DNA of 64,000 nucleotides from Escherichia phage vB_EcoM_DE16. Shown here piece after piece: positions 3,293 through 54,660 of the stretch. Both the position numbers and the translations under genes were made by a program. The stretch lies in sequence record OP595145.1, one strand, 5' to 3'. The notes beneath the pieces were generated by a model. That model worked only from the letters and a program-made list of their open reading frames with translations. It did not search any database and had not been told where the DNA came from. Each line of letters starts with the position of its first letter. Positions within the stretch are counted from its first letter, which is position 1.

Positions 3293-4285
3293 TTAAATCT
3301 TCTCACTCCACCATTGAGGGTTGTTTAAGTACCATTCAATCGTTGAGTAGAGATCTTGTTCAAATGTAGAGTTTGCACTCCAACCCAGTTCAGACTCTAT
3401 TTTAGAAGGATTGATTTCATAACGCAAGTCATGTCCTTTACGATCTTCAACAAAAGTTATCAAGTTGGAAGAAGGGTAGGTTCCTGCTTCTGGATGTACA
3501 GCATCCATGTAGTCACAAACCATATAGATGATCTCCATATTGGTTTTGGGATTACGTGTTCCAACATTATACGTTTGACCTGGTTCTCCACCTGTTGCCA
3601 CTTGAAGAATAGCTCGCGCATGATCCTCAACAAAAAGCCAGTCTCGCACCTGATCGCCTTTACCATACACCGGAATCTCTTTATTCGTCAAGATACTTGT
3701 GATGATTTTTGGGATCAGCTTTTCTGGATGTTGATAAGGTCCAAAGTTATTGGAGCAGTTGGTTATCACAACAGGTAAACCGTAGGTACGGTACCAAGCT
3801 TTCACAAGATGGTCAGATGCTGCCTTAGACGCACTGTACGGGCTTGAAGGAGCATAAGCTGTCTCTTCGGTAAAGGGAACGCCAGAGTCTGCCATATCGC
3901 CGTACACTTCGTCTGTGGAGACGTGTACGAACATCTTCAGTTTATTTTTTGGGAGGAGCCTTGCAGCTTCCAATAAATTGTATGTGCCAATAATATTGGA
4001 GTCGATGAAAACTCGTGGATTCTTGATAGAATTATCCACATGACTCTCTGCCGCTAAGTGAATGATGAAATCGGGATTGCACTCTACTACTAAACTTTTG
4101 ACCTGGGTTTCGTTTGCCAAATCTGTTATGCTTAGTTTAACGTGAGTGATATCGCCTACATTCTCAATATCTGCTGCATAGCCCATCTTATCAACGACAA
4201 AAACTTCGTTATTGGGATCTTGACAAAGAGAGCGCACCACGGCACTCCCAATAAAACCAAGACCACCTGTTACCAGATAGCGCAT
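3293..4285 (-). CDS. rmlB: dTDP-glucose 4,6-dehydratase
   Basis: 330 aa; TGGLGFIGS Rossmann motif, STDEVYG and YSASKAASD catalytic motifs of SDR-type dehydratases. Confidence 0.85.
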
Positions 4286-22451: not shown

Positions 22452-22801
22452 TTCTTTTTGCTCCTCTTTTTAGATTTCTCATACAAACCTAACACAGCCG
22501 CTTCTTTTGCACAAGTAGGAACTGAAGTCATTCCTCTTCTTTTTGCTTCTGGAAGATTGAGTGTCCACCATCCGAACCAATAAATTTGGTCTGCCGTGAG
22601 TGGTTCAGCCATTGGATCTGCCTCCTGCTCCTCAAGACGTTGCAACGCTTCTTCAATCTTCTCGATTGGTGTGTCAAAGACGAATGCCTCCGTATCAAAT
22701 TTATCTTTCTTAGGAACTGATTTGGCTACTTTGAGAACCTCGTTTTTCGGTTTCTTAGTAACGTTCTTTGGCTTTGATAACTTCTTCTGTGTTTTCGCCA
22801 C
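22448..22801 (-). CDS. lysine-rich hypothetical protein (117 aa)
   Basis: K-rich N- and C-termini, possible nucleic-acid binding. Confidence 0.45.
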   Translation of the reverse strand: MAKTQKKLSKPKNVTKKPKNEVLKVAKSVPKKDKFDTEAFVFDTPIEKIEEALQRLEEQEADPMAEPLTADQIYWFGWWTLNLPEAKRRGMTSVPTCAKEAAVLGLYEKSKKRSKKK

Positions 22802-22994
22802 TTACTACCTCCATACGATCTAAAAAGTCATTCACAAATCTCCAGTAACGTTGACCTGTTCTAAGATCTTCATAGATAACCACAGGATCAAACACTTTAG
22901 ATATTCCGGCAGGTTTTGGAAATTCCACTACTGTATATAAACCACCTTTTGCTACACAAGAATAGGTTACGCCTGTAATTGGATAGTTGCTCAT
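22755..22994 (-). CDS. hypothetical protein (79 aa)
   Basis: ORF only. Confidence 0.4.
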   Translation of the reverse strand: MSNYPITGVTYSCVAKGGLYTVVEFPKPAGISKVFDPVVIYEDLRTGQRYWRFVNDFLDRMEVVSGENTEEVIKAKERY

Positions 22995-23185
22995 TTCTTT
23001 ACGTACTCCATGATTGGGGTATGGTCGCCAGTAAGCGTAACACGGCTGTAGGACACATCTTGTGTCTTCAGTGTATCAATCCACTCTAAGAAGTGTTCTT
23101 TCGCTTCTGTGTAGTTCTGTGTGCCTTTAACAACGTGTATACCATCTAGAGTTACACGGAATACCATTTGAATAACGTCTTTCAT
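22991..23185 (-). CDS. hypothetical protein (64 aa)
   Basis: ORF only. Confidence 0.4.
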   Translation of the reverse strand: MKDVIQMVFRVTLDGIHVVKGTQNYTEAKEHFLEWIDTLKTQDVSYSRVTLTGDHTPIMEYVKK

Positions 23186-23298
23186 TTCTTACCTCCTTTG
23201 TTGTCAAAATAACTTACCAGAACATCGTGAACCACACACATGGCAAAAATCAGAACAATTGTTGTCAGGACTGGATTCTCACTAATTAGTGCTATCAT
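23182..23298 (-). CDS. small membrane protein (38 aa)
   Basis: internal ATG with GGAGGTGG RBS; single hydrophobic helix. Confidence 0.3.
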   Translation of the reverse strand: MIALISENPVLTTIVLIFAMCVVHDVLVSYFDNKGGKK

Positions 23299-23605
23299 CT
23301 TTAACCACCTCCAATTGCCTTTCGAGTTTGACTTTGTTTGAGAACTGATAATGACACAACTTACATTGCATGTCAACAATCTGATCGTGATTTAACCCTA
23401 CAATTTTAACTTCCTTTGCACCATCCCACTCCAAATACTCAAAGCCATCCAAATGATTACTCTTGTCCAACAGGAATGCTATCTGCTGCCATTCAATCTG
23501 AATGTCATTTAAATGATATGCTGCACAGAAGATATCCTCATAGTAAAAGACGATCATTGTCATTGCTTCGTCCAGCACAACTACCTCTTGTCTTGTAAAT
23601 CTCAT
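23282..23605 (-). CDS. hypothetical protein (107 aa), first gene of the minus-strand arm
   Basis: ORF adjacent to divergent control region. Confidence 0.45.
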   Translation of the reverse strand: MRFTRQEVVVLDEAMTMIVFYYEDIFCAAYHLNDIQIEWQQIAFLLDKSNHLDGFEYLEWDGAKEVKIVGLNHDQIVDMQCKLCHYQFSNKVKLERQLEVVKDDSTN

Positions 23606-23859
23606 TCTAGCCTCCTAAACGCGTCTCTGACGCACTTTTTATATATAAGATGATAAATCACCTTACCTAGTAAGTGAACTTGCTCTACGAGCCTCTTATG
23701 AAGCTTATGTTATAGGCTATACTATTGCTACCTGTTTAAGCAAGGTTTTTGCACACAGAAAATAATTTTTAATAAAACTCTTGACTTTTGTGTTCGAAGT
23801 ATGCTACCCTAGAAATCTATTAACGAGCGCAGCGAGTTAAGGTTTTAGGTTGTTGATGT

Positions 23860-24060
23860 AGTATTCTGTACTAAAGTACTGTACTCCGTACTAGATTAAT
23901 AATTATTAAATATTAATAATAAATAATTATTAGATCTAACAAACAGGTACAGTGTATCAGAACTGGTACGTACAGATCAACTTCTATCAATTAAAAAATA
24001 AAATAATAAATTATTATAAATAATACTTGATCTATAGATCAGTATGAAGTACAGTACGGA
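23860..24060. promoter_or_regulatory. divergent control region with GTAC-containing iterons flanking AT-rich palindromes; origin or operator candidate
   Basis: four GTACT copies at 23866-23893, GGTACAG / GTACGTACAG / GTACAGTACGG repeats, AT-only palindromic tracts 23896-23935 and 23990-24027, GATCTATAGATC palindrome. Confidence 0.3.
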
Positions 24061-24087
24061 ACATCTTAACAAGAATGGAGGTGTGCA

Positions 24088-24273
24088 ATGATTAGTGAGA
24101 ATCCGTGCAAATGGCATCATGTGCCTATTAAAGATTGTATGTCTTGTAATCCACGTTCTATTTATAACATTGCATCTTATGACGATGACAATGTGTTAGA
24201 CGATGATGAAGGCTGGGAGGATTTAGATTGGACTGGTTATGAAACCAAAAAGGATAAAATTATTCCTAGTTGA
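24088..24273 (+). CDS. hypothetical protein (61 aa)
   Basis: GGAGG RBS before ATG. Confidence 0.45.
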   Translation: MISENPCKWHHVPIKDCMSCNPRSIYNIASYDDDNVLDDDEGWEDLDWTGYETKKDKIIPS

Positions 24274-24310
24274 CTTAAGATATCCTTCGTGCTAAACTAG
24301 AAGTGAGGAG

Positions 24311-24562
24311 ATGCCGATCACTCCCCATTTGGGGTTCGAAGGATATATGCAAAATAGTTTTTATTTTAGGTGCCGTGCTTGTAATAGGCATTTGACAAAC
24401 CACTCCAGACGTGATAAAAATGGAGTCATCAAGGAATCAGACCTCTGTTCTATTTGCACAGGTTTGGCTTTTGATGATAGTCCCGAAAGGGTTTATCAGC
24501 ATCAATGTATAACAGACGTTCTCGTGTCAAACTTGGTAGAGGACGAACAACTAACAGATTAG
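24311..24562 (+). CDS. cysteine-rich hypothetical protein (83 aa)
   Basis: GAGGAG RBS; CRACN ... CSICTG cysteine pairs. Confidence 0.45.
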   Translation: MPITPHLGFEGYMQNSFYFRCRACNRHLTNHSRRDKNGVIKESDLCSICTGLAFDDSPERVYQHQCITDVLVSNLVEDEQLTD

Positions 24563-24570
24563 GAGGAACA

Positions 24571-24819
24571 ATGTCTCTATTAGAAAAACACGTGTTTGAA
24601 GATGGTAACGGCAATGCAGTTTTTCTTTTCCATCCAGAAAAATACACATCTGAAAACAATGGTACAACTTCTATTGTAATCACTAAAGATGTTAAAGTTA
24701 TTGATTTCTTGGCTCTAATGCGAGAGATGGATCTTGAAATTAATACTTTTAACGCAGAAGCTTTGGTTGTTGCTCTTCTGGAAAAGAAAGATAGTGAAGA
24801 AGTAGCAGAATATGCTTAA
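24571..24819 (+). CDS. hypothetical protein (82 aa)
   Basis: start set at internal ATG 24571 preceded by AGGAGG. Confidence 0.45.
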   Translation: MSLLEKHVFEDGNGNAVFLFHPEKYTSENNGTTSIVITKDVKVIDFLALMREMDLEINTFNAEALVVALLEKKDSEEVAEYA

Positions 24820-24826
24820 ATAACTA

Positions 24827-24856
24827 TTGACAAACGTATCCTTCATATGTTAGGAT
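24827..24856 (+). promoter_or_regulatory. sigma70-like promoter candidate (ACTATTGACA -35 box)
   Basis: TTGACA at 24827 then 17 nt then TTAGGAT; shares motif with the other promoter candidates listed. Confidence 0.35.
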
Positions 24857-25064
24857 ACGTTCATCAAGTGTGGTAAGAGGGTCGTTGACTTTTGTTAAGA
24901 TGGGCTTGCACTGCGGTAGTGTTAGAGACTACTTCTTCAGAGGTTAGCTACCAAAGAGGAAAAGGAATAGTCTCGGCTCAAGAACTTTTACGCTGAAAGT
25001 TGGGCTTGGTCTTAGAGAATGTAGCGGTTCTCTACAATCGTCAGCGTCTCTGTTACCACATTTA

Positions 25065-25139
25065 TGGCCCTGTAGCTCAATGGGAGAGCTGTCGGCTCAT
25101 AACCGATAGGTAGCTGGATCGAAACCAGCCAGGGCCACC
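25065..25139 (+). tRNA. tRNA, anticodon CAT (Ile2 lysidine-type or Met)
   Basis: manual cloverleaf: acceptor GGCCCTG/CAGGGCC, anticodon loop CTCATAA, T-loop, encoded CCA; resembles bacterial tRNA-Ile2. Confidence 0.7.
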
Positions 25140-25142
25140 AAC

Positions 25143-25217
25143 GTCTTTATGGTGTAATGGATAGCACAGGAGTCTTCTAAACTCTTAGTCAAGGTTCGAT
25201 TCCTTGTAAAGACACCA
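25143..25217 (+). tRNA. tRNA-Arg (anticodon TCT)
   Basis: acceptor GTCTTTA/TAAAGAC, anticodon loop CTTCTAA, T-loop GGTTCGATTCC, encoded CCA. Confidence 0.7.
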
Positions 25218-25413
25218 GAATATTTTAACATGAATTAGCTCAAGTGATTTGAACCCCACTACTGATCATGGTGGCAGAGAATGAGGCAAGTATGTCAGAC
25301 ATTATAAACAAAGGCCACGGTTATATTAGAAGACATAGACGCTCGAAGAGCACCGTTCGTGGAGAACGGGGGTTGGTGGAGTCACCATTCATGGTAAAAT
25401 GTTTTAAAAAACT

Positions 25414-25443
25414 ATTGACAACAAACATTATTTTATGTTAGAT
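25414..25443 (+). promoter_or_regulatory. sigma70-like promoter candidate (ACTATTGACA -35 box)
   Basis: TTGACA then 17 nt then TTAGAT, upstream of tRNA-Ser. Confidence 0.4.
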
Positions 25444-25451
25444 TATAAGTA

Positions 25452-25542
25452 TGGAAGGGCAAATCGACGTGGCGACGAAAACGGTCTTGAAAACCGCCGA
25501 GCTTGAAAGAGCCTTGGGAGTTCGACTCTCCCTCCTTCCGCC
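25452..25542 (+). tRNA. tRNA-Ser (anticodon TGA), class II
   Basis: anticodon loop CTTGAAA, long variable arm, T-arm GGGAGTTCGACTCTCCC, discriminator G, encoded CCA; D-arm fold is irregular. Confidence 0.6.
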
Positions 25543-25547
25543 AGATT

Positions 25548-25633
25548 AGGTAGATTGGTGAAATGGTAGCCACAACAGTTTGCTAAACTGTAGTCGGAAA
25601 CGGCGTGTAGGTTCGAGTCCTACATCTACCGCC
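25548..25633 (+). tRNA. tRNA-Ser (anticodon GCT), class II
   Basis: acceptor GGTAGAT/ATCTACC, anticodon loop TTGCTAA, variable-arm hairpin, discriminator G, CCA. Confidence 0.7.
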
Positions 25634-25763
25634 AAGTTCTTTTTAATATAGCTTACTTTAATAGAGTAAACTTTCGGCAGATGGCCTCCACCATCTTACC
25701 GATACTTCATAGTTAGTGGTGCGAACACTGGCTATTTTAAAAAGAATTTAAATACTAGCATTT

Positions 25764-25851
25764 AGGTGAGTTAATTCCGTAGGGGTAGCGGGGCAGACTG
25801 TAAATCTGTTATCATTGCGATTCGGGTGGTTCGACTCCATCACTCACCACC
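25764..25851 (+). tRNA. tRNA-Tyr (anticodon GTA), class II
   Basis: acceptor GGTGAGT/ACTCACC, anticodon loop CTGTAAA, long variable arm, discriminator A, CCA. Confidence 0.7.
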
Positions 25852-25857
25852 AAATTA

Positions 25858-25943
25858 AGATGAGTTGGCTGAATGGTTTAAGCGGCGGACTGTTAATCCG
25901 TGTTCGAAAGAACGATATAGGTTCAAATCCTATACTCATCGCC
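25858..25943 (+). tRNA. class II tRNA with anticodon GTT (Asn anticodon on a Ser/Tyr-type body); identity unresolved
   Basis: perfect 7-bp acceptor GATGAGT/ACTCATC, 3-bp D stem, anticodon stem GCGGA/TCCGT with loop CTGTTAA, 15-nt variable arm (GTTC-GAAA-GAAC), T-arm ATAGGTTCAAATCCTAT, discriminator G, CCA. Confidence 0.6.
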
Positions 25944-25950
25944 AGAATTA

Positions 25951-26027
25951 TGGACTTGTAGAGTTAAGGTAAACCCCCAGTCGCCAAGAGGCTTCTGGAA
26001 TTGCAGGTATCGAATCCTGCCGAGTCC
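25951..26027 (+). tRNA. tRNA-like element with aberrant D/anticodon arms (possible tRNA pseudogene)
   Basis: 7-bp acceptor GGACTTG/CGAGTCC and T-arm GCAGG-TATCGAAT-CCTGC (8-nt loop) but no 5-bp anticodon stem with 7-nt loop; no encoded CCA. Confidence 0.3.
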
Positions 26028-26033
26028 CAGCTT

Positions 26034-26108
26034 TGCTCCTATAGTATAATGGCTATTACAACGGTTTTGTAATCCGTGGATCTCTGTTCGATTCAGAGTG
26101 GGAGCACC
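26034..26108 (+). tRNA. tRNA-Thr (anticodon TGT)
   Basis: acceptor GCTCCTA/TGGGAGC, anticodon loop TTTGTAA, T-arm CTCTGTTCGATTCAGAG, CCA. Confidence 0.65.
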
Positions 26109-26608
26109 AACATAACAGGTAAGAACATTTAGGCTACTGAGAAATCATCCGAGGCAATCAGACCTATCTTCTGTTAAGTGTTCTTATCGTTGTGAAGAAA
26201 GCAAACTTATTGAATGTAAGCGGACGAAAGACATTCACTAACCTGTAGTAAGGTCGAGCCAAAGCGCGGTAATGAGTTCCGAGGTTAGTATTCACAACAC
26301 AACATTAAGAGCACTGTGATTGATCGTCGTATCCTGTGCACAAGGTCTGCTCGAAAGACAGTGTTCTTAGTATTGTGTTGATCACAAAAAGAGTTACCTG
26401 AAACTTGACCGGAGTAGGGTTGGATGGGGCAAAAGAAGAAGCGGCTCTCCCATCGACAGCAACGAAGAATAATATTTGACTTTGGTTTTGTATTATTTTA
26501 AGTTAGCTTACCGAACGTAGGGCTAGTCACCCAATGGGATACTCGTCACTGTCCCACTCAATAAAACTATTGACAACCAATAGTAAAATGTAGTATAGTA
26601 AAGATGTA
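26109..26608 (+). ncRNA. ORF-free, tRNA-free 0.5 kb spacer inside the tRNA cluster; structured ncRNA candidate
   Basis: no ORF of 60 aa or more on either strand, no T-loop motif; long-range complementary pairs AAGAACA/TGTTCTT and TTGTGAA/TTCACAA. Confidence 0.25.
26569..26598 (+). promoter_or_regulatory. sigma70-like promoter candidate (ACTATTGACA -35 box)
   Basis: TTGACA then 18 nt then TATAGT, upstream of tRNA-Gly. Confidence 0.45.
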
Positions 26609-26609
26609 G

Positions 26610-26683
26610 GGCGTTCTTGGTGTAGCGGTAGCATTCCGTCCTTCCAAGTCGGCGGCACGAGTTCGATCCTCGTAGAACGCTCC
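26610..26683 (+). tRNA. tRNA-Gly (anticodon TCC)
   Basis: acceptor GCGTTCT/AGAACGC, anticodon loop CTTCCAA, T-arm ACGAGTTCGATCCTCGT, CCA. Confidence 0.65.
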
Positions 26684-26781
26684 AAATTATTTAATAAAGG
26701 GTTGCCAGAAAACTTTCTCTTTTACTCATGGTTTTCTCCTTCTCTCACACCTCTTCTGGTTGCCCTTCATTAAATGATTTA

Positions 26782-26857
26782 TTGGTTTGTAGTGTAGTCA
26801 GGTAGCACACGACACTTTGACTGTCGTAGGTTTGGTTCAAATCCAGACAGACCAGCC
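26782..26857 (+). tRNA. tRNA-Gln (anticodon TTG)
   Basis: acceptor TGGTTTG/CAGACCA, anticodon stem-loop CGACA-CTTTGAC-TGTCG, T-loop TTCAAAT, CCA. Confidence 0.65.
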
Positions 26858-26862
26858 ATATA

Positions 26863-26939
26863 ACGGAATTTAGCTCAGTTTGGTAGAGTGTACGCTTTGG
26901 GAGCGTATTGTCGCAGGTTCGAATCCTGCAATTCCGACC
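26863..26939 (+). tRNA. tRNA-Pro (anticodon TGG)
   Basis: acceptor CGGAATT/AATTCCG, anticodon stem-loop TACGC-TTTGGGA-GCGTA, T-arm GCAGGTTCGAATCCTGC, CCA. Confidence 0.7.
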
Positions 26940-26945
26940 AATTAA

Positions 26946-27019
26946 ATGTTTCGTAGTTCAATGGTAGAACCCACGACTGATAATCGTGAGACACAAGTTC
27001 GATTCTTGTCGAAACAACC
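26946..27019 (+). tRNA. tRNA-Ile (anticodon GAT)
   Basis: acceptor TGTTTCG/CGAAACA, anticodon stem-loop CACGA-CTGATAA-TCGTG, T-arm, CCA. Confidence 0.7.
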
Positions 27020-27021
27020 AG

Positions 27022-27093
27022 TTTCCCGTTAGACTTACAGGATAAGAGTTCCACAGCTTATTGTGATGCTGGTTCGAATCCAGCACGGGATAC
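27022..27093 (+). tRNA. tRNA-like element lacking a canonical anticodon arm (pseudo-tRNA or non-canonical tRNA)
   Basis: good acceptor (TTCCCGT/ACGGGAT), D-arm and T-arm GCTGGTTCGAATCCAGC, but only 16 nt between D- and T-arms, forming CACAG/TTGTG stem with 4-6 nt loop; 3' end ACC not CCA. Confidence 0.3.
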
Positions 27094-27097
27094 CTAA

Positions 27098-27176
27098 TAG
27101 CGGGATAGAGGAGTCTGGTCGTCCTCGCCAGTTTCATATGCTGGAGATCATTGGTTCAAATCCAATTCCCGCCTCC
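27098..27176 (+). tRNA. tRNA-Met (anticodon CAT), possibly initiator-like
   Basis: anticodon stem-loop CCAGT-TTCATAT-GCTGG, T-loop TTCAAAT, acceptor AGCGGGA/TCCCGCC with A1:C72 mismatch, CCA. Confidence 0.6.
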
Positions 27177-27291
27177 AAATATCGCTTGCCAGCGGTATCT
27201 TTGAAGACCTTGCCTGGTTCCTTCTAAGATGGAGGGGTGCGACTCCTTAACGCACAATTATAATAAAGCATTTCAAATTAACAGTATTTAT

Positions 27292-30856: not shown

Positions 30857-32422
30857 GTGTCAACAGGAAAAAGAACGTACACTAAAAAGTCAGAATACTG
30901 GGACAAAGGTGCTGCAAATAAAGCTGCTCTCTCTCCAACAAAAGAAGCAGAGAAAGAGAAAACGTTACTCCTGTCACCTGAAATAGGAACGATCGGATTA
31001 AACTCAATCAAAGCATTTACGAATTTCATGCAACCCTATGAGACTCGTTTCCCAGAATGTATTCGAACTTTTAAAGAGATGGGTGAAGACCCTGATGTAG
31101 CTACTGCTCTTGATGCTACGTATATCTTTGTAGATAGAGCATTCTTTGATTTTAAGATAAAATACAATGTAAGCTCGGCAAAGTCAAGAAAAGCTGCTAA
31201 GTTTATTGATTATATGTTACGTAATATGCAAGCCCCTCTACGTCAATATGTTAGATCACTTTTGACATATAAGCAATACGGGTTTGCATTTGCAGAAAAA
31301 GTTTATGAGTTGGATGAAGATCCTAAGAGTCCTTACTTTGGGTATTGGCGATTAACTAAGCTGGCTTTTAGGCCACAAGATACTCTTCACATGGCTCAAC
31401 CTTTTACATATTCGGCAGACGGACGTTCTATCTTGTCTGTTAACCAGAATATCACCAATACAATGTTAGCACCAGGTAATACGACTTTAGAAACTGGTAT
31501 TAAAGAAATTCCTTTTAGTAAAGTTTTATTTGTCGGTAGCAACATTACAGAGAATAACCCACTAGGAGTTAGTCCGCTTTTAGCTGTATATCGTAGCTGG
31601 CGTGAAAAATCTCTTATTCAGGAATTTGAGGTTATTGGGGTATCTAAAGATTTAGGTGGTATGCCAGTTCTTAAGGTTCCAAGTGACATTCTAAACAGGG
31701 CATCTTTAGATCCTGCTGGGGATGAAGCACAATCTCTTCGAGTTCTCCAAGCCAACATCGCTAACCTTCACTCTGGTGAGCAAGCCTACATGGTATTGCC
31801 TTCAGACGTTTATGAAGGTACAGTGATGCGTCAATACGATCTTGTATTCCAAGGTGTTGATGGCACGGGTAAACAGTTTGACACTCAAGCACTAATCAAA
31901 CAACGTAAACTGGATATTTATAACCGCTTTGGTGCGGGTGTGTTGATTATGGGTGATGGTGATGCAGGAAGTTTTGCGCTTTCTGACAACAAACAAACAC
32001 TATTGTCTCATTTTATTGAGCGAGATGTAGATATTGTTGTAGAAGCTATAAACTCTCAACTGATCCCTCAAACACTACGACTAAACAATATCTTCCTTTC
32101 TGATGAAGATATGCCTAAGTTTGTCAGTGGTGAAATGGGTGATCCTGATATTGAAGTAAATGCTAAAGCTATTCAGCAGTTGGTAGCCTCTGGTGCAATA
32201 CCTTTAACCCCAGAAGTTATTAACGAGTTCCTTGAAAAAATTGGTTTTGAATATCGCATCCCTGACGATATTGTTGCCAATAAAGAGAAATTCTTTGAAT
32301 TCATGGATAACTATATGCCTGACAAAACTTCACGATCAGGAGATGGTTTAGCTACAGCGGGAACTGGAACGTCTGATACTGTTTCTGCTTTAGATCCTTC
32401 AGCACAAAACCTGTCGAATTAA
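30857..32422 (+). CDS. portal protein (putative)
   Basis: 521 aa ORF immediately after terminase large subunit; GTG start with GGAGGAA RBS; assignment by position and size. Confidence 0.5.
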   Translation: MSTGKRTYTKKSEYWDKGAANKAALSPTKEAEKEKTLLLSPEIGTIGLNSIKAFTNFMQPYETRFPECIRTFKEMGEDPDVATALDATYIFVDRAFFDFKIKYNVSSAKSRKAAKFIDYMLRNMQAPLRQYVRSLLTYKQYGFAFAEKVYELDEDPKSPYFGYWRLTKLAFRPQDTLHMAQPFTYSADGRSILSVNQNITNTMLAPGNTTLETGIKEIPFSKVLFVGSNITENNPLGVSPLLAVYRSWREKSLIQEFEVIGVSKDLGGMPVLKVPSDILNRASLDPAGDEAQSLRVLQANIANLHSGEQAYMVLPSDVYEGTVMRQYDLVFQGVDGTGKQFDTQALIKQRKLDIYNRFGAGVLIMGDGDAGSFALSDNKQTLLSHFIERDVDIVVEAINSQLIPQTLRLNNIFLSDEDMPKFVSGEMGDPDIEVNAKAIQQLVASGAIPLTPEVINEFLEKIGFEYRIPDDIVANKEKFFEFMDNYMPDKTSRSGDGLATAGTGTSDTVSALDPSAQNLSN

Positions 32423-32450
32423 AAATATTTAATATTTTTTAATTTTTCTA

Positions 32451-32479
32451 TTGACAAAACAACAAATATCCTGTAGACT
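32451..32479 (+). promoter_or_regulatory. sigma70-like promoter candidate with AT-rich upstream element
   Basis: TTGACA then 17 nt then TAGACT; preceded by A/T tract 32420-32448. Confidence 0.35.
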
Positions 32480-32515
32480 AAGATTTATGGGATATCTGTT
32501 TTTAAGAGGTTTCAA

Positions 32516-32995
32516 ATGGAACTCAATAAAGATACACTGTGGGAACTCTTCAAAACCTTCGCTGGTTTTAAAGAGAATTCTGAATCCCAACAAGATTCTA
32601 TACCATCTCAAAAACCTGAAACTTTAGTCAAACAAAATAAATTTGACGAAGAAAAGATGCAGGTTATTGAGGTCTTGTATTGTCCACCTGAAGAAGACGA
32701 TCTCCACGGAGAGCGCATGTCTGATTTGGAAATCAGGAAGATGGTTGACAACTTCAATGAGAATATTACCAACATTAGTGGTAATCTTGGTCACATGAAG
32801 AACACCGATAAGTTTTCTCCAATTAAAGCTTGGGTAAATGAAGTCGATTGTTACATTGGTGACGAACTCGTTGTGGAAGGAACTCCCCTCGTTAAAATCC
32901 AATTCAACGACCCTGAATTATATCAAGCTCGTAAAGACGGCGTTCTTAAAGGTTTGAGTATAGGCGCAATGGGCGTTAAAGTCAAGAAGGACTAA
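32516..32995 (+). CDS. head morphogenesis protein (possible prohead protease)
   Basis: 159 aa between portal and scaffold genes; conserved-looking His (HGERMSD) and GLSIGAMG segment; assignment tentative. Confidence 0.3.
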   Translation: MELNKDTLWELFKTFAGFKENSESQQDSIPSQKPETLVKQNKFDEEKMQVIEVLYCPPEEDDLHGERMSDLEIRKMVDNFNENITNISGNLGHMKNTDKFSPIKAWVNEVDCYIGDELVVEGTPLVKIQFNDPELYQARKDGVLKGLSIGAMGVKVKKD

Positions 32996-52005: not shown

Positions 52006-53946
52006 ATGTCAACTACAATTACTAATTTACCCGAAACATCAAAAGTTAATGATTCTGATTACCTGGTTTTAGACCAACCTGATAAGACTGTTAAAAGCAC
52101 AGTTTCCAACTTTCTTACTGACACTGGGGTGGTTTTAGCCACCCAGTTGAAAGATACAGATGGAGCAGATTTAATACAATCCTCAAATGGTAATACTGTT
52201 CAGGAAGAGTTGAATAACAATCTTCTTAATGATCGTGAACAGTGGCGTCGTAGTCTTGCTGAGGCTGGCTTAACGCTTGTTGATGGTAGTTTTGAAGACG
52301 GTGCTACAGCAAATAGTAAAACTGATGCCGTTTGGTATAGGACAGGAGGTCAGTGTTATGTGTGGGATGGTGTCGGGGTTAAAAATGTACCTGCTAAATC
52401 AACTCCAACATCAACTGGCGGGGAAGGGGTTGATAAGTGGCTTAATGTTAGTAATGTTACACTTAGGAGTGGGATAGTAGCCTCTATAAATCCAGTAGAT
52501 AATCTAAGCGCACTTAAATCGTCCCTTGCATCAAAGAAGATAACCACATTAACTGAGGCTGTAACCACTACGGATGTAATTATTGTTCCTTCCTACAGTG
52601 AGTTAAGAGGCATTGGTCATAATATAGGAATCATTGCACAACAACCGAAGCCGCAAAAAGTAATATCAAAATCTGGAAATAAAAAATATGATTTTGTTAA
52701 TACAAATAAACCACTTCAGTCGAGAGATGCAATATTAGCTATAGATCCTGCGTGGATTGACGGAGTATACCCCCAACATACAATAATCGATGGGGTATCC
52801 TTACTTGGTGATCCATCCAGTAAAAATGATGTCGGGCTATTTATTTTTCAGGGTGGAAATTTCACCATCAGGAACATGCAGATAGCGAACTGCCTAGACG
52901 GGATTCTTAGCAGTGGCTGCTGGATTAGTCGCTTTGAGAACGTGAGTGCGCTTGGTGGCAGTCTGGCTTTTAATGGTGGCACAAGCCATGTATTAATTGG
53001 GTGCGCTGCCTGGGCTACCGCTGAGAATGACGGAGCATTTTATTTTAATGACGTAACATACAGCAGCATGGTTGGATGCACATCTGACCACTCGGAAGCT
53101 CCAGCTAACTTCTTCAGAGATGGCGTGCAGATGACCATGGTTAACTGCGGAAGCGAGTTCGCTACCTCACCGGGAGGTGGTGTTGGTAGCATGATTGCGT
53201 CAGCAGGTGCGGGCAATAAAATCACGGTACTTGGATATAAAGGGGTTCCAAAGGCTGGGCAGACTGACCCGCTAATTAGTATTTCAGAAAACAGTACGAT
53301 GCACATTATCAATTGGTACAGCAATGAGCCAGACTATCCGAATAGTTTAGACGTCAGTGTAAATGGTGACGGAAGCACTATTATTGTTGAAGATAGTATA
53401 TTCTCTGGAGGCCGAACCCTGCCGGTTGTACAGTTCAGGGGCAACCAACCGAACAGTAAAGTTATTGTTAAGAGCGGCGGTAATGAATATGTATATACCT
53501 CACCTCTGGGGGGTGGTATTGTAAGTTCACCAGAACGTAAGTACAGAGGTACAACGTATACACCGAAGCTACTGGTTAATGGCGCGAATGTTGCCGAGCT
53601 AACATATTCCACTGCTATAGGTAGTGCAGTAAAGAATGGTAATCAACTAACAGTAAACTTTAATTTAGTTATATCAGCCGCTCCTTCATCCCCATCTCAG
53701 GGTACTATTACACTGGATTTACTTTCTACTGAGACGGGGTACGTTCCTGAATATGAATCGTGTGGTGTGCTAGTAGTTTCTAATGGTGTGGGTTTCAGTG
53801 GGGTGGCATGCGTAGTGTCGCCCAATGAGACTATGGTTTATTTAAAAAGCAGTGATGGGGTAAATATGCAACTACAGCATATAAAGGCAGGAACGCAAAT
53901 CAGAGGAGCGGTGACATTTAAAGTAAAAAGATCTGGTTGGTCATGA
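52006..53946 (+). CDS. tail fibre/tailspike protein
   Basis: 646 aa; N-terminal fibre-type motif; WDGVGVKNVPAKSTPTSTGG motif shared with 61860..63884; Gly/Ser/Asn-rich beta-helix-like repeats. Confidence 0.5.
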   Translation: MSTTITNLPETSKVNDSDYLVLDQPDKTVKSTVSNFLTDTGVVLATQLKDTDGADLIQSSNGNTVQEELNNNLLNDREQWRRSLAEAGLTLVDGSFEDGATANSKTDAVWYRTGGQCYVWDGVGVKNVPAKSTPTSTGGEGVDKWLNVSNVTLRSGIVASINPVDNLSALKSSLASKKITTLTEAVTTTDVIIVPSYSELRGIGHNIGIIAQQPKPQKVISKSGNKKYDFVNTNKPLQSRDAILAIDPAWIDGVYPQHTIIDGVSLLGDPSSKNDVGLFIFQGGNFTIRNMQIANCLDGILSSGCWISRFENVSALGGSLAFNGGTSHVLIGCAAWATAENDGAFYFNDVTYSSMVGCTSDHSEAPANFFRDGVQMTMVNCGSEFATSPGGGVGSMIASAGAGNKITVLGYKGVPKAGQTDPLISISENSTMHIINWYSNEPDYPNSLDVSVNGDGSTIIVEDSIFSGGRTLPVVQFRGNQPNSKVIVKSGGNEYVYTSPLGGGIVSSPERKYRGTTYTPKLLVNGANVAELTYSTAIGSAVKNGNQLTVNFNLVISAAPSSPSQGTITLDLLSTETGYVPEYESCGVLVVSNGVGFSGVACVVSPNETMVYLKSSDGVNMQLQHIKAGTQIRGAVTFKVKRSGWS

Positions 53947-54112
53947 TTATATGCTAACAGGATGCTGAAGATATGGGAGTGAGTTTTCCCTTTCTTAATC
54001 TGAACTGTATATGGCATCAGTGGCGTGGATGCCCATGGATGGCACCACGCTAACTGGTGTTAATAATCTTGATTTGACTTTCTACTATTAATAGAAAAAC
54101 AAAGAGGTTTAT

Positions 54113-54421
54113 ATGAACGAAATGTTCTCACAAGGTGGTAAAGGTTCAACCGGAATCTTAACCAATAAACAAGCAGTAGCCCGTCACTTTGGAGTTAAAC
54201 AATCTGAGGTTGTTTACTTCTCAGTTGGTGTGGATTTGGGTGGGTATAAGGTTATCTATGATAAGGAGACGCAAAGGGCGTATTCCCTACCTGCTGATAT
54301 TGCCCCAGGTACTACTGCCATTAGTCTTAGTGCTGCTGTACTTGTGCATTCAGCGGGTTCTGTAGACCTTGGGGAATTAGCTGTATCTTGTGATTTAAAA
54401 AGTAATGAGAACGCACCATGA
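54113..54421 (+). CDS. stand-alone fibre-domain protein (102 aa) homologous to an internal segment of 58745..61798
   Basis: QAVARHFGVKQSEVVYFSVG...YSLPADIAPGTT...SAGSVDLGELAVS aligns with QTIARKYGLLDDEVAYATAG...YTLPPNITGTLT...SGGSVDLSALAVE in the 1017-aa protein. Confidence 0.45.
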   Translation: MNEMFSQGGKGSTGILTNKQAVARHFGVKQSEVVYFSVGVDLGGYKVIYDKETQRAYSLPADIAPGTTAISLSAAVLVHSAGSVDLGELAVSCDLKSNENAP

Positions 54422-54660
54422 GAAAGTTTTTAATCGGAATGTTTTGTACTTATCCAAACAACAAAATCAGTTCTACTAAAGTGTGGAACGCACTGGGAAT
54501 GCTAACCATGACAGGCATGTTTATCTTTTTAGGAATAGAAAAAGAAATTCCTGAATGGATGGGTTGGGCTTTTGTTTTCATGATAACCCCTTCTCGCCTC
54601 ATGAAAAATCTTATTGATTTACGTTGGGGCAGATCACAATCTACCAAAGAGGATGACTAA
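54418..54660 (+). CDS. small two-TM membrane protein (holin-like)
   Basis: 80 aa with two hydrophobic segments and charged C-terminus. Confidence 0.35.
   Translation: MRKFLIGMFCTYPNNKISSTKVWNALGMLTMTGMFIFLGIEKEIPEWMGWAFVFMITPSRLMKNLIDLRWGRSQSTKEDD

What the first reader, a model, noticed from the sequence alone, without database searches (positions are those of the whole stretch)
23606..24087. Divergent control region with GTAC iterons flanking AT-only palindromes (origin or operator candidate)
The only long non-coding stretch between the two oppositely transcribed arms contains four GTACT repeats within 30 bp, further GGTACAG / GTACGTACAG / GTACAGTACGG copies, two roughly 40-bp tracts made only of A and T with internal palindromes, and a GATCTATAGATC palindrome. 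This layout (protein-binding repeats around an easily melted segment, at a transcription divergence point) is typical of replication origins and of operator arrays.
Basis: seen in the sequence. Interest (0 to 1): 0.5.

Follow-up and report, generated by a model that had tools for sequence, protein, structure and literature searches.

The report
Divergent phage promoter region with GTAC palindrome
This 482-base gap is where the two big gene arms of a phAPEC8-type E. coli phage start in opposite directions; it holds conserved promoters plus a clade-specific GTAC-rich palindrome, and nothing shows it is a replication origin.

Summary
The window is a Phapecoctavirus (phAPEC8-like E. coli myophage). 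Positions 23606-24087 are the only long gap between the leftward DNA-metabolism arm and the rightward tRNA/lysis/structural arm. GTAC is depleted genome-wide, yet 9 copies lie here (10 in most relatives). The two longest A/T-only runs of the whole genome are here too.

Comparison with phiWec-type Phapecoctavirus, phi92, FKP3 and Tr1 separates a conserved scaffold from a clade-specific addition.
- **Conserved scaffold:** promoter P1 (TTGACT-N18-TACCCT with a TG extension); a covarying stem-loop with core CGAGCGNAGCGAG, a cassette present three times per genome; a GATCTAACARACA block; and an A/T tract abutting a second promoter, P2.
- **Clade-specific addition:** a 35-nt GTACT x5 insertion, a 38-bp AT palindrome and inverted GTACAG copies. 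Together they form a roughly 130-nt imperfect palindrome (RNA fold z = -4.3).

GC skew follows all four strand blocks, so it does not locate an origin. The repeats are not iteron-like. TrpR, SlmA, IHF, Fis, CRP and LexA patterns are absent; only one relaxed DnaA box lies in the gap.

Best reading: a divergent early promoter/leader region with a lineage-specific structured leader. Origin, operator and pac-site roles remain possible but unsupported.

The parts
23606..23649 (-). 5' leader of the first leftward gene (ORF 23282-23605): RBS GGAGG (complement of 23611-23615) and a short hairpin GCGTCTCTGACGC at 23621-23633
   Evidence: Sequence. Hairpin reported. The block is conserved in phiWec190/181 and invariant in 12 close relatives.
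23650..23678 (-). Leftward sigma-70-like promoter candidate PL: TTCACT-N17-TATCAT
   Evidence: Consensus scan, 9 of 12 positions. The -10 part (GATGATAAATCACCTTACCT on the plus strand) is conserved in phiWec, and partly in phi92 and Tr1. It has not been verified as a transcription start.
23759..23777 (+). 19-bp A/T-only run immediately 5' of the P1 -35 box (UP-element-like)
   Evidence: Fourth longest A/T run in the window. An A/T-rich stretch occupies the same place in phiWec.
23781..23810 (+). Promoter P1: -35 TTGACT (23781-86), 18-nt spacer ending in TGC (TG at 23802-03), -10 TACCCT (23805-10)
   Evidence: TTGAC and T.TG.TACCCTA are invariant in window, ESCO13, phiWec190, phi92, FKP3 and Tr1. 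The same promoter occurs three times per genome. It scores below the simple scan's threshold (8 of 12), so its support comes from conservation, not from the scan.
23820..23840 (+). Conserved stem-loop at about +10 to +30 of the P1 transcript: TTAA-CGAGCGCAGCGAG-TTAA (core 23824-23836; C.G pair, tandem G.A/A.G, two G-C pairs, G-N-A loop)
   Evidence: The core is invariant in all lineages except the loop base (C, A, AT, GG, AA). Flanking stem pairs covary across 15 distinct cassettes: 80.8% paired versus 30-43% when slid, covariation score 0.375 versus 0.08-0.19, and 0 of 500 shuffles reach it.
23837..23853 (+). Short tandem TTAAGGTTT(T) repeat of variable copy number
   Evidence: One to three copies among close relatives UP17, Ro121lw, anhysbys and BI-EHEC.
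23861..23892 (+). Left GTACT array: four intact copies plus one decayed copy (GTAT at 23861). Clade consensus is GTACTCT GTACTCAA GTACT GTACTCC GTACTAG
   Evidence: It is a 35-nt insertion relative to phiWec, phi92, FKP3 and Tr1. The 48-mer consensus is exact in 50 of 64 records and absent outside Phapecoctavirus.
23895..23932 (.). A/T-only near-perfect palindrome: longest A/T run, least stable 40-bp duplex in the window, and centre of the large palindrome
   Evidence: (I2). Absent from phiWec-type, phi92 and Tr1 at this position.
23933..23945 (+). Conserved block GATCTAACAAACA
   Evidence: phi92 and Tr1 have GATCTAACAGAC; phiWec has GATCTTAAAGAC.
23946..23976 (+). Right GTAC block in the inverted sense: GGTACAGT (23946-53) and GGTACGTACAGA (23965-76)
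   Evidence: GTACAGT pairs with ACTGTAC (23878-84) and GTACAGA pairs with TCTGTAC (23865-71) in the DNA and RNA folds. GTACAGnGTATCA is shared with FKP3. phiWec has GTTAGA and GCTCTATACTG at the aligned positions.
23852..23983 (+). About 130-nt imperfect nested palindrome (four helices around the AT palindrome), lying in the leader between P1 and P2
   Evidence: RNA fold of 23841-24026: -38.5 kcal/mol, z = -4.27, 0 of 200 shuffles as stable. DNA fold z = -3.15. Equivalent leaders: FKP3 z = -2.0, Tr1 z = -2.0, phi92 z = +0.2, phiWec190 z = -1.6.
23989..24025 (+). Second A/T-only run (37 bp), ending one base before the P2 -35 box (UP-element-like)
   Evidence: Homologous A/T-rich tracts abut the P2 -35 box in phiWec, phi92, FKP3 and Tr1. 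The same layout occurs at 32417-32447 plus TTGACA-N17-TAGACT.
24027..24055 (+). Promoter P2: TTGATC-N17-TACAGT. The spacer holds the 14-bp palindrome TGATCTATAGATCA. The -10 box overlaps GTACAGTAC (GTAC at 24049 and 24054)
   Evidence: Conserved as TTGACT-N18-TAGAGT (phiWec), TTGACT-N17-TAGAGT (phi92) and TTGACC-N17-TACACT (FKP3). It scores 8 of 12, so the simple scan does not list it.
24077..24090 (+). RBS GGAGG and ATG of the first rightward ORF (61 aa, unknown function)
   Evidence: The protein is 100% identical in most relatives. No Pfam family was found; PHROG family is of unknown function.

Best explanation
The gap is the divergent early promoter and leader region of a phAPEC8-type phage genome.

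**Leftward.** A sigma-70-like promoter (PL) and a short leader start the DNA-metabolism arm.

**Rightward.** Two tandem host-type promoters start the arm that carries three small ORFs, the tRNA cluster, and the lysis and virion genes.
- P1 is one of three copies per genome of a conserved cassette. Each cassette has an extended -10 promoter (TTGACT ... TGnTACCCT) followed 12-16 nt later by a small, very stable stem-loop with core CGAGCG-N-AGCGAG. That stem-loop would sit at the 5' end of the transcript.
- P2 lies 245 bp downstream. The 37-bp A/T-only tract directly abuts its -35 box, in the position of an UP-element-type upstream activating tract.

**The GTAC and AT features.** These are not part of the conserved scaffold.
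- In the phAPEC8 clade, a 35-nt GTACT x5 block and a 38-bp AT palindrome were added between the P1 stem-loop and the P2 upstream tract.
- Neighbouring bases there read GTACAG in the opposite sense.
- The result is a roughly 130-nt nested imperfect palindrome.

**Inferred mechanism (not shown).**
- Transcripts from P1 fold this segment into a long irregular hairpin.
- Alternatively, the AT core extrudes as a DNA hairpin under supercoiling.
- Either structure would tune rightward early expression, for example through RNase III-type processing, through leader stability, or by hindering read-through into P2.
- The GTAC sites across the P2 -10 box could additionally be bound by a protein that has not been identified.

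The element is most likely not the conserved replication origin.
For: **Shown**
- Gene arms and strand switch.
- P1, its stem-loop, the GATCTAACARACA block, the A/T tract and P2 are conserved across Phapecoctavirus subclades, phi92, FKP3 and Tr1. This holds even though the flanking protein is only 33-47% identical in the non-Phapecoctavirus lineages phi92, FKP3 and Tr1.
- The cassette is present three times in the 536P1 genome and three times in each of three roughly 150-kb IMG/VR contigs.
- The stem-loop covaries.
- The long A/T-only run at 32417-32447 also abuts a -35 box. AT-rich tracts upstream of the -35 box are a described feature of strong phage early promoters (PMC2839356).
- The GTACT block is an insertion unique to the phAPEC8 clade.
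- The palindrome gives an exceptional fold score only in this clade: z = -4.27, against +0.2 to -2.0 in the other lineages.
- GC skew follows gene orientation at all four block boundaries.

**Inferred**
- That P1, P2 and PL actually fire.
- That the hairpin forms in vivo.
- That the hairpin has a regulatory effect.
Against: - No transcript data exist for this genus in the searchable literature, so all promoters are predictions. P1 and P2 each match only 8 of 12 consensus positions.
- Arrays of a palindromic tetramer generate self-complementarity automatically, so the fold z-score partly restates the repeat content.
- The locus is unique in the genome. Uniqueness fits a single-copy cis site such as an origin or a pac site at least as well as it fits a promoter accessory.
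- Within the clade, GTAC columns are neither more nor less variable than the rest of the gap (3/40 versus 24/441, p = 0.48). There is therefore no direct sign of selection on individual copies.
- AT tract 1 has no convincing promoter beside it, so the UP-element reading covers only tract 2.
Confidence: 0.45

Rival explanations
1. Replication origin of the transcription-activated type, as at the T7 primary origin or T4 oriF/oriG. P1 transcribes into the easily melted AT palindrome and the RNA primes leading-strand synthesis. The GTACT and GTACAG copies, facing each other across the AT core, load a clade-specific initiator or helicase head-to-head.
For: - A promoter followed 85 bp later by the least stable duplex of the whole genome.
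- The locus is unique in the genome.
- The extended 7-mers have convergent orientation around the AT core.
- The cumulative GC-skew minimum lies at about 23700.
- rV5-like phages encode a T7-type primase-helicase and a family A polymerase (PMC3606486).
- 'Promoter then A/T-rich tract' is kept in every lineage examined.
Against: - Skew flips at all four strand-block boundaries, with a second minimum at about 75 kb, so it reflects gene orientation (PMC3606486).
- The GTAC array and AT palindrome 1 are missing in phiWec-type phages. Their nearby proteins are 62-96% identical (TerL and portal 90-91%). Replication proteins were not compared.
- The repeats are not iteron-like.
- No initiator-like domain was found in the flanking ORFs.
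- No strict DnaA box or IHF site is present.
Confidence: 0.2
2. Operator array. A phage-encoded (or host) protein recognises GTACT, binds the left block and the copies over the P2 -10 box, and loops out the AT-rich DNA to shut off or time rightward early transcription.
For: - GTAC is purged from the rest of the genome but concentrated here.
- Two copies overlap the P2 -10 box and start site, and five lie at +45 to +80 of P1.
- The 5-copy consensus is exact in 50 of 64 records.
- Aligned positions in phiWec carry non-GTAC bases, which suggests GTAC was created repeatedly.
Against: - No candidate binding protein: the flanking ORFs have no DNA-binding domain.
- The site occurs at only one promoter region in the genome.
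- The irregular 5-8 bp spacing leaves little room for one protein per copy.
- Known E. coli GTAC-containing sites fail. The SlmA consensus and the TrpR geometry GTACT-N8-AGTAC are both absent from the gap.
- No excess conservation of GTAC columns.
Confidence: 0.15
3. Functionless by-product. Slippage and local gene conversion in a non-coding, A/T-rich and recombination-prone leader expanded a GTACT unit and an AT palindrome. Ten extra GTAC sites add little restriction risk to a genome that already carries about 127.
For: - The element is clade-specific.
- Neighbouring short repeats vary in copy number: TTAAGGTTT, and a 13-nt deletion in dw-ec.
- Single copies have been lost independently in the window, phAPEC8, anhysbys and dw-ec.
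- The substitution rate in GTAC columns equals the background rate.
Against: - The units have different spacers, so they are not a recent simple tandem duplication.
- The right-hand copies arose by separate substitutions.
- Such an extreme local excess, against a 2.7-fold genome-wide depletion, is hard to reach by drift.
- The array is identical in most of 64 isolates.
Confidence: 0.15
4. Packaging recognition (pac-like) site. Short repeats on both sides of a bendable or meltable centre would be bound by a small terminase, as at the phage P1 pac site.
For: - The locus is unique, lies 4.6 kb upstream of terL, and has repeats on both sides of a central segment.
- Terminase site specificity often differs between close relatives (general knowledge).
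Against: - No small-terminase gene was recognised nearby. The ORF directly upstream of terL is a spanin.
- A tRNA cluster and a lysis gene lie in between.
- In the sister genus the reported 342-bp terminal repeat (BME3) lies in a different, unrelated non-coding region.
- Public records start at many different positions.
Confidence: 0.05

Closest known systems
PeSL cassettes (promoter-early stem-loops) of T4-type phages RB49/phi1 (PMC2839356, PMC4122927)
   Same: A composite repeated module: a strong sigma-70-like promoter with an AT-rich tract upstream of the -35 box, plus a conserved stem-loop. Several copies occur per genome at the heads of small-ORF clusters.
   Different: - Here the stem-loop lies downstream of the -10 box, so it is transcribed as the 5' end of the RNA. 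In PeSLs it lies upstream and acts as a terminator.
- There are only three copies per genome.
- The stem-loop is a G-N-A/tandem-G.A mini-hairpin rather than a polyG/polyC stem.
- There is no sequence homology. A role in modular shuffling was not tested.
Transcription-activated phage origins (T7 primary origin: promoters 1.1A/1.1B plus an AT-rich segment; T4 oriF/oriG: middle promoter plus a downstream unwinding element). From established knowledge.
   Same: A promoter followed within about 100 bp by an extremely A/T-rich, easily melted segment. The phage family encodes a T7-type primase-helicase.
   Different: There is no functional evidence. The AT palindrome nearest P1 is clade-specific. The other A/T tract abuts the next promoter. 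Skew gives no independent support.
Sigma-70 promoters with UP elements (for example rrnB P1 and phage early promoters). From established knowledge.
   Same: A/T-only tracts end 1-3 bp before the -35 hexamer at P1, at P2 and at the promoter at 32451.
   Different: The tracts are 19-37 bp and partly palindromic, which is longer than the roughly 20-bp UP element. AT tract 1 has no adjacent promoter.
RNase III processing hairpins in phage early leaders (T7 R0.3 and related sites, lambda N leader). From established knowledge.
   Same: A long irregular hairpin with internal loops, located between tandem early promoters and the first gene.
   Different: The stems here are largely A-U and GUAC-based. 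Cleavage is untested. The structure is not conserved in sister lineages.
Iteron origins (lambda ori, plasmid oriV)
   Same: Repeats lie next to an A/T-rich segment.
   Different: The repeat core is 5 bp (7 bp at most), the spacing is 5-8 bp and out of helical phase, and no initiator gene is adjacent.
TrpR operators of E. coli (mtr: TGTACTCGTGTACTGGTACAGTGCA; trp: CGAACTAGTTAACTAGTACGCAAG; read from K-12)
   Same: GTACT half-sites, an 8-bp tandem spacing at one pair, and the 9-mer GGTACAGTG shared with the mtr operator.
   Different: The defining inverted geometry GTACT-N8-AGTAC is absent. The spacings are 13 or 15 bp rather than 14.
Phage P1 pac site (hexamer repeats flanking the cleavage point). 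From established knowledge.
   Same: Short repeats lie on both sides of a central segment, and the site is unique in the genome.
   Different: The motif is not a Dam site, the locus is not in or beside a terminase gene, and no terminus data exist.

Membership tests
Iteron-type replication origin | Three or more direct repeats of about 17-22 bp, spaced in helical phase | tested here: not met
   The core is GTACT (CYGTACT at most). Start-to-start spacings are 7, 8, 5 and 7 bp.
Iteron-type replication origin | Adjacent A/T-rich unwinding element | tested here: met
   The two least stable 40-bp duplexes of the window lie at 23892-23931 and 23985-24024.
Iteron-type replication origin | Initiator gene adjacent, or host initiator sites (DnaA boxes, IHF) | tested here: not met
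   The flanking ORFs have no known domains. One relaxed DnaA box lies at 23747, with no strict box and no IHF site.
Iteron-type replication origin | Repeats conserved in relatives that share the replication proteins | tested here: not met
   phiWec-type phages, phi92 and Tr1 lack the GTAC array. Conservation of the replication proteins themselves was not checked; only nearby non-replication proteins were compared.
Transcription-activated origin (T7/T4 type) | Promoter directed into an A/T-rich unwinding segment | tested here: met
   The P1 -10 box ends at 23810 and the AT palindrome starts at 23895. The promoter is conserved.
Transcription-activated origin (T7/T4 type) | Replication initiates there | not testable with these tools
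   This needs marker-frequency or intermediate mapping. GC skew is confounded with gene orientation.
Sigma-70 promoter with UP-type upstream tract | -35 and -10 hexamers with a 16-18 nt spacer | tested here: met
   - P1: TTGACT-18-TACCCT with a TG extension.
- P2: TTGATC-17-TACAGT.
- PL: TTCACT-17-TATCAT.

P1 and P2 match only 8 of 12 consensus positions but are conserved across genera.
Sigma-70 promoter with UP-type upstream tract | A/T-rich tract directly upstream of the -35 box | tested here: met
   23759-23777 precedes P1, 23989-24025 precedes P2, and 32417-32447 precedes the promoter at 32451. This feature is not met for AT tract 1.
Sigma-70 promoter with UP-type upstream tract | Transcripts start there | not testable with these tools
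   No transcriptome for this genus was found.
PeSL-type promoter/stem-loop cassette | Repeated composite of an early promoter and a conserved stem-loop | tested here: met
   Three copies per genome. The stem-loop covaries.
PeSL-type promoter/stem-loop cassette | Stem-loop upstream of the promoter, acting as a terminator | tested here: not met
   The stem-loop lies 12-16 nt downstream of the -10 box, and no U-run follows it.
TrpR operator | Inverted half-sites GTACT-N8-AGTAC | tested here: not met
   No match with up to 2 mismatches inside 23606-24087.
SlmA-binding site | 12-bp palindrome GTGAGTACTCAC | tested here: not met
   No match with up to 3 mismatches in the gap.
pac site of the P1 type | Located in or next to the small-terminase gene; packaging series starts there | tested here: inconclusive
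   No terS was recognised. The ORF before terL is a spanin. Termini are not determinable from the assemblies.
Known RNA family (Rfam) | Covariance-model match | tested here: not met
   Only sub-threshold chance hits at this locus and at the two other cassette copies.

The most novel reading that the evidence does not exclude
Two readings remain open.

1. The GTACT/GTACAG copies facing each other across the most meltable DNA of the genome are a clade-specific, single-copy cis-acting site. This would be an origin of replication or another DNA-transaction site. An unidentified protein recognising GTACT would assemble on it head-to-head, in a genome that otherwise purges GTAC.
2. Independently, the conserved promoter-plus-mini-hairpin cassette (three per genome, subfamily-wide) could be a new cis-acting RNA signal heading the early transcription units. 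It might act in antitermination, processing or 5'-end protection.
Probability: 0.15. Interest if true: 0.6.

Novelty: new variant of a known kind. Interest (0 to 1): 0.35.

Why it matters
Phapecoctavirus and phi92-like phages are widely isolated for therapy against E. coli and Klebsiella. No transcription map or origin mapping for them turned up in the literature searches here.

- **For annotation and engineering.** The analysis gives a testable map of the main divergent control region. It also identifies a conserved promoter/stem-loop cassette that marks three transcription starts per genome.
- **For the origin question.** GC skew in these genomes only reports gene orientation and should not be used to call an origin.
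- **If the palindrome is functional.** If the clade-specific GTAC palindrome turns out to bind a protein or to start replication, it would be a compact example of a cis site built from a sequence the rest of the genome avoids.

Tried and rejected
- **GC skew as origin evidence.** Rejected. The whole-genome profile of 536P1 has four sign changes, all at strand-block boundaries.
- **Physical genome end or terminal repeat.** The 'repeat_region' annotations in nepoznato, anhysbys and tuntematon are only 55-bp marks on the AT tracts. The BME3 342-bp DTR lies in an unrelated non-coding repeat region with no similarity to the window.
- **Host TrpR.** The mtr and trp operators were read from K-12. There is a resemblance, but the defining geometry is absent.
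- **Host SlmA.** No match.
- **DnaA, IHF, Fis, CRP, LexA, oriC 13-mer.** Nothing beyond one relaxed DnaA box.
- **GATC/Dam cluster.** Four GATCs in 110 bp is matched elsewhere in the window, although three of the sites are positionally conserved in phiWec.
- **Rfam.** No family found.
- **Mobile element or host origin of the segment.** No match in 5,426 E. coli genomes and none outside Phapecoctavirus in the phage collection.
- **Flanking proteins as regulators.** No domains found.
- **Purifying selection on GTAC copies.** No signal with 11 relatives.
- **BI-EHEC as evidence of locus-specific GTAC loss.** Rejected. In that record 19 of 40 GTACs across 49 kb are changed.
- **IMG/VR search with the 61-aa protein.** Only one extra locus, of the phiWec type.
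- **First pattern scan for the hairpin.** Mostly chance hits in GC-rich contigs.
- **One malformed alignment call** and one script error, both repeated correctly.
Full report
**Identity and setting.**
The window is a Phapecoctavirus, a phAPEC8-like E. coli myophage of the Stephanstirmvirinae. Positions 22600-25100 are 99.2-99.4% identical to AV125, ESCO13 and many other isolates.

In phAPEC8 and ESCO13, every annotated gene left of 23605 is on the minus strand. These encode DNA ligase, exonucleases, thymidylate synthase, ribonucleotide reductase and similar functions. Every gene right of 24088 is on the plus strand. That arm carries three small ORFs, ten tRNAs at 25066-27177, a spanin, terL, the portal, and head and tail genes. 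Positions 23606-24087 are the only long gap between the two arms.

**Checking the observation.**
All listed elements are present where stated. GTAC is strongly depleted: 65 copies in the window against 178 +/- 12 in dinucleotide-preserving shuffles. Nine of them fall within 23868-24057, the densest 250-bp window in the sequence.

I assembled a complete relative, 536P1 (149,471 bp). There the locus holds 10 of 137 GTACs, and the next densest window holds 4.

The A/T-only runs at 23895-23932 (38 bp) and 23989-24025 (37 bp) are the two longest in the window and in that whole genome. Markov simulations never exceeded 33 bp. They are also the two least stable 40-bp duplexes.

The first run is a near-perfect palindrome. 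GATC, in contrast, is not unusually dense here.

**What is conserved and what is not.**
Only two forms of the gap exist in the phage collection and IMG/VR. One is the phAPEC8 type (about 65 records, 94-99% identical). The other is a phiWec type (phiWec179/181/186/188/190, PsgM04F and one IMG/VR contig).

The homologue of the leftward ORF (107 aa) also heads a divergent junction in three further phages. These are phi92, Klebsiella phage FKP3 and Citrobacter phage Tr1, at 33-47% amino-acid identity. Aligning all lineages shows a common scaffold:
- **Promoter P1.** Its -35 is TTGAC(T/A) and its -10 is an extended TGnTACCCTA. In the window these lie at 23781-23786 and 23802-23810.
- **An invariant 13-mer** CGAGCG-N-AGCGAG, 12-16 nt downstream (23824-23836).
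- **A block** GATCTAACARACA (23933-23945).
- **An A/T-rich tract that abuts a second promoter, P2.** In the window P2 is TTGATC-N17-TACAGT at 24027-24055. The equivalents are TTGACT-N17/18-TAGAGT in phi92 and phiWec, and TTGACC-N17-TACACT in FKP3.

The left GTACT array is a 35-nt insertion present only in the phAPEC8 type. AT palindrome 1 replaces an unrelated segment of about 45 nt. At the aligned positions of the right-hand GTACs, phiWec has GTTAGA and GCTCTATACTG. One copy, GTACAGnGTATCA, is shared with FKP3.

**The P1 cassette.**
A scan of the 536P1 genome for the extended -10 found two more copies of the same module. Both have TTGACT-N14-TGnTACCCT followed by CGAGCGATAGCGAG. They lie at 74,772 and 107,324 on the minus strand. 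Three roughly 150-kb IMG/VR contigs of the subfamily also carry three copies each.

I took fifteen distinct cassettes and counted pairs for the following proposed structure. It has an outer stem, a C.G pair, tandem G.A/A.G, two G-C pairs and a G-N(1-2)-A loop.
- 80.8% of cells pair, against 30-43% when the partner is slid.
- The covariation score is 0.375, against 0.08-0.19 for slid partners.
- None of 500 shuffles reaches the observed values.
- Only the loop base varies within the core (C, A, AT, GG, AA).

So P1 is a conserved promoter-plus-5'-stem-loop cassette. The nearest described concept is the PeSL cassette of T4-type phages. In PeSLs, however, the stem-loop precedes the promoter and terminates upstream transcription (PMC2839356). 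No Rfam family matches.

**The A/T tracts.**
The third longest A/T-only run of the genome (32417-32447, also partly palindromic) ends three bases before TTGACA-N17-TAGACT, upstream of the prohead-protease gene. The 19-bp run at 23759-23777 ends three bases before the P1 -35 box. The 37-bp run at 23989-24025 ends one base before the P2 -35 box.

AT-rich DNA upstream of the -35 box is a noted property of strong phage early promoters (PMC2839356). Tract 2 is therefore best read as an upstream activating tract of P2. Tract 1 has no credible promoter next to it on either strand.

**The palindrome.**
The extended repeat is asymmetric (CYGTACT) and changes sense across AT tract 1. ACTGTAC (23878-84) faces GTACAGT (23947-53), and TCTGTAC (23865-71) faces GTACAGA (23970-76). 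Outside these, TTGATGT faces ATCAAC.

Fold scores for the segment and its equivalents:

| Sequence folded | Molecule | Energy | z-score | Shuffles as stable |
|---|---|---|---|---|
| Window 23841-24026 | RNA | -38.5 kcal/mol | -4.27 | 0 of 200 |
| Window central 131 nt | DNA | -15.9 kcal/mol | -3.15 | 1 of 200 |
| FKP3 equivalent leader | RNA | -33.7 kcal/mol | -2.0 | 7 of 200 |
| Tr1 equivalent leader | RNA | -32.4 kcal/mol | -2.0 | 3 of 200 |
| phiWec190 leader | RNA | -48.4 kcal/mol | -1.6 | 10 of 200 |
| phi92 equivalent leader | RNA | -19.7 kcal/mol | +0.2 | 107 of 200 |

The window segment folds as one four-tiered hairpin. Strong structure is thus a property of the phAPEC8 clade. It is present to a lesser degree in FKP3, whose hairpin arms also contain GTAC. 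Because GTAC is itself a palindrome, part of this score follows from the repeat content.

**Is it an origin?**
The cumulative GC skew of the complete genome has two minima (about 75 kb and 145.9 kb, the latter equal to window position about 23700) and two maxima. All four lie exactly at the switches between plus- and minus-strand gene blocks. The rV5 authors reached the same conclusion for their phage (PMC3606486). Because all genes to the left are on the minus strand and all to the right on the plus strand, replication and transcription effects cannot be separated here.

Other points bearing on the origin model:
- The repeats do not have iteron dimensions.
- No initiator-like protein flanks the site.
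- There are no strict DnaA boxes and no IHF or Fis sites.
- The array is missing in phiWec-type phages. The proteins compared nearby (none a replication protein) are 62-96% identical, and TerL and the portal are 90-91% identical.

What remains in favour is the layout 'promoter then the most meltable DNA of the genome', as at the T7 primary origin and T4 oriF/oriG. The uniqueness of the locus also counts in favour. I put the origin reading at about 0.2.

**Other readings tested.**
- *Host repressor TrpR.* The mtr operator (TGTACTCGTGTACTGGTACAGTGCA) resembles the array. The defining GTACT-N8-AGTAC geometry is absent from the gap.
- *SlmA.* No site with three or fewer mismatches.
- *pac site.* No small terminase was recognised. 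The ORF before terL is a spanin. The terminal repeat reported for the sister-genus phage BME3 lies in a different non-coding repeat region unrelated to this window.
- *Foreign or mobile DNA.* No similar sequence in complete E. coli genomes or outside Phapecoctavirus.

**Variation within the clade.**
- The five-copy consensus 48-mer is exact in 50 of 64 records.
- Among 11 aligned relatives, single copies are lost in the window, phAPEC8, anhysbys and dw-ec.
- The density of variant states in GTAC columns (3/40) equals that of other columns (24/441, p = 0.48).

This neither shows nor excludes selection on individual copies.

**Verdict.**
'Divergent control region' is supported. 'Iterons' and 'origin' are not supported.

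The conserved functional core is the P1 cassette, the P2 promoter with its A/T tract, and the leftward promoter. The GTAC/AT palindrome is a lineage-specific addition to the leader between P1 and P2. My best guess is that it acts through nucleic-acid structure, and possibly through an unidentified binding protein, to tune rightward early expression. This step is inference. Origin, operator and neutral-expansion readings each keep a non-trivial probability, and simple experiments listed separately would separate them.

Noticed in passing
window 23781-23840; other copies in relative 536P1 (OZ035728.1) at 74772 and 107324 (minus strand), outside the window: A promoter plus 5' mini-hairpin cassette (TTGACT-N14-TGnTACCCT, then CGAGCG-N1-2-AGCGAG) occurs three times per genome. 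It is conserved across Stephanstirmvirinae with covarying stem pairs. The 107324 copy points against the surrounding genes and is followed by further hairpins, so it may make a small non-coding RNA.
   Followed up: partly
IMG/VR loci L062, L067-L069, L076, L078, L081-L084, L089, L093, L098-L100, L103, L109, L111, L112, L114, L119, L123, L124, L127; also L048, L102, L106, L110: The same hairpin core, CGAGCG-N-AGCGAG, lies 10-20 nt after TACCCT in unrelated low-GC viral contigs. About two dozen contigs carry two such units back to back, roughly 100 bp apart on opposite strands. L102 and L106 carry arrays of the core. Many other hits in GC-rich contigs look like chance (the pattern required TACCCT).
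   Followed up: partly
whole window; clusters at 3786-3928 and 53227-54446: GTAC is depleted about 2.7-fold relative to dinucleotide-preserving shuffles (65 versus 178). Other 4-bp palindromes (CTAG, CCGG, GGCC, GCGC) are also low. Apart from the studied locus, the remaining GTACs cluster in the GC-richer sugar-nucleotide genes and in the tail-fibre region, which may be more recently acquired DNA.
   Followed up: partly
locus L017 (OL505078.1, phage BI-EHEC) versus window 137-49787: In this one public record, 19 of 40 GTAC sites are changed. Eighteen read ATAC or GTAT, which is the same G-to-A change seen on either strand, and one reads GCAC. Overall divergence is only 1.6%. This looks like a systematic base-calling artefact at a modified GTAC, or strong selection by a GTAC-specific restriction system in that host.
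   Followed up: partly
window 32417-32516: A 31-bp A/T-only, partly palindromic tract lies directly 5' of TTGACA-N17-TAGACT, ahead of ORF 32516-32995. phAPEC8 annotates the homologous ORF as 'DNA methyltransferase', but it matches the XkdF-type phage serine protease family (PF14550, E = 1.4e-11).
   Followed up: yes
window 24270-24350: A third rightward promoter (TTGACT-N17-TAAACT with TG) shares extended similarity with P1. A perfect 10-nt inverted repeat (ATATCCTTCG / CGAAGGATAT, 24280-89 and 24337-46) brackets the start of ORF 24311-24562. This stretch is 73-77% identical at DNA level in phi92-like phages, where it sits next to the NAMPT gene.
   Followed up: no
window 23837-23853: TTAAGGTTT(T) is present in one to three tandem copies among otherwise near-identical isolates (UP17, Ro121lw, anhysbys, BI-EHEC).
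   Followed up: yes
loci L005 2073-2285, L009 1003-1215 and L020 (phiWec-type phages): The phiWec-type version of the gap carries an extra 70-aa minus-strand ORF between the leftward leader and P1. It has no Pfam or PHROG family. In phi92, FKP3 and Tr1 the rightward arm instead begins with PRPP synthetase and NAMPT genes, which are absent at this position in Phapecoctavirus.
   Followed up: partly
window 25066-27177: Ten tRNA genes are interspersed with several near-consensus sigma-70-like promoters (24827, 25415, 26570, 27335). The gene content of this cluster differs between isolates; for example, tRNA-Tyr is present in phAPEC8 and phiWec.
   Followed up: no
loci L007/L008 (PP239276.1, phage BME3): The reported 342-bp 'DTR' of this Justusliebigvirus lies in a roughly 3-kb stretch with no annotated genes. 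That stretch contains internal repeats of about 340 bp, so the repeat may not be a true genome terminus.
   Followed up: no
public records PV659873.1, PV691511.1, PV682947.1 and PV763039.1 (WPEC1/2/4/6): These near-identical phages are deposited with lengths of 155-161 kb and different start points, against about 150 kb for relatives. This would fit circular permutation with terminal redundancy (headful packaging) or assembly redundancy.
   Followed up: no
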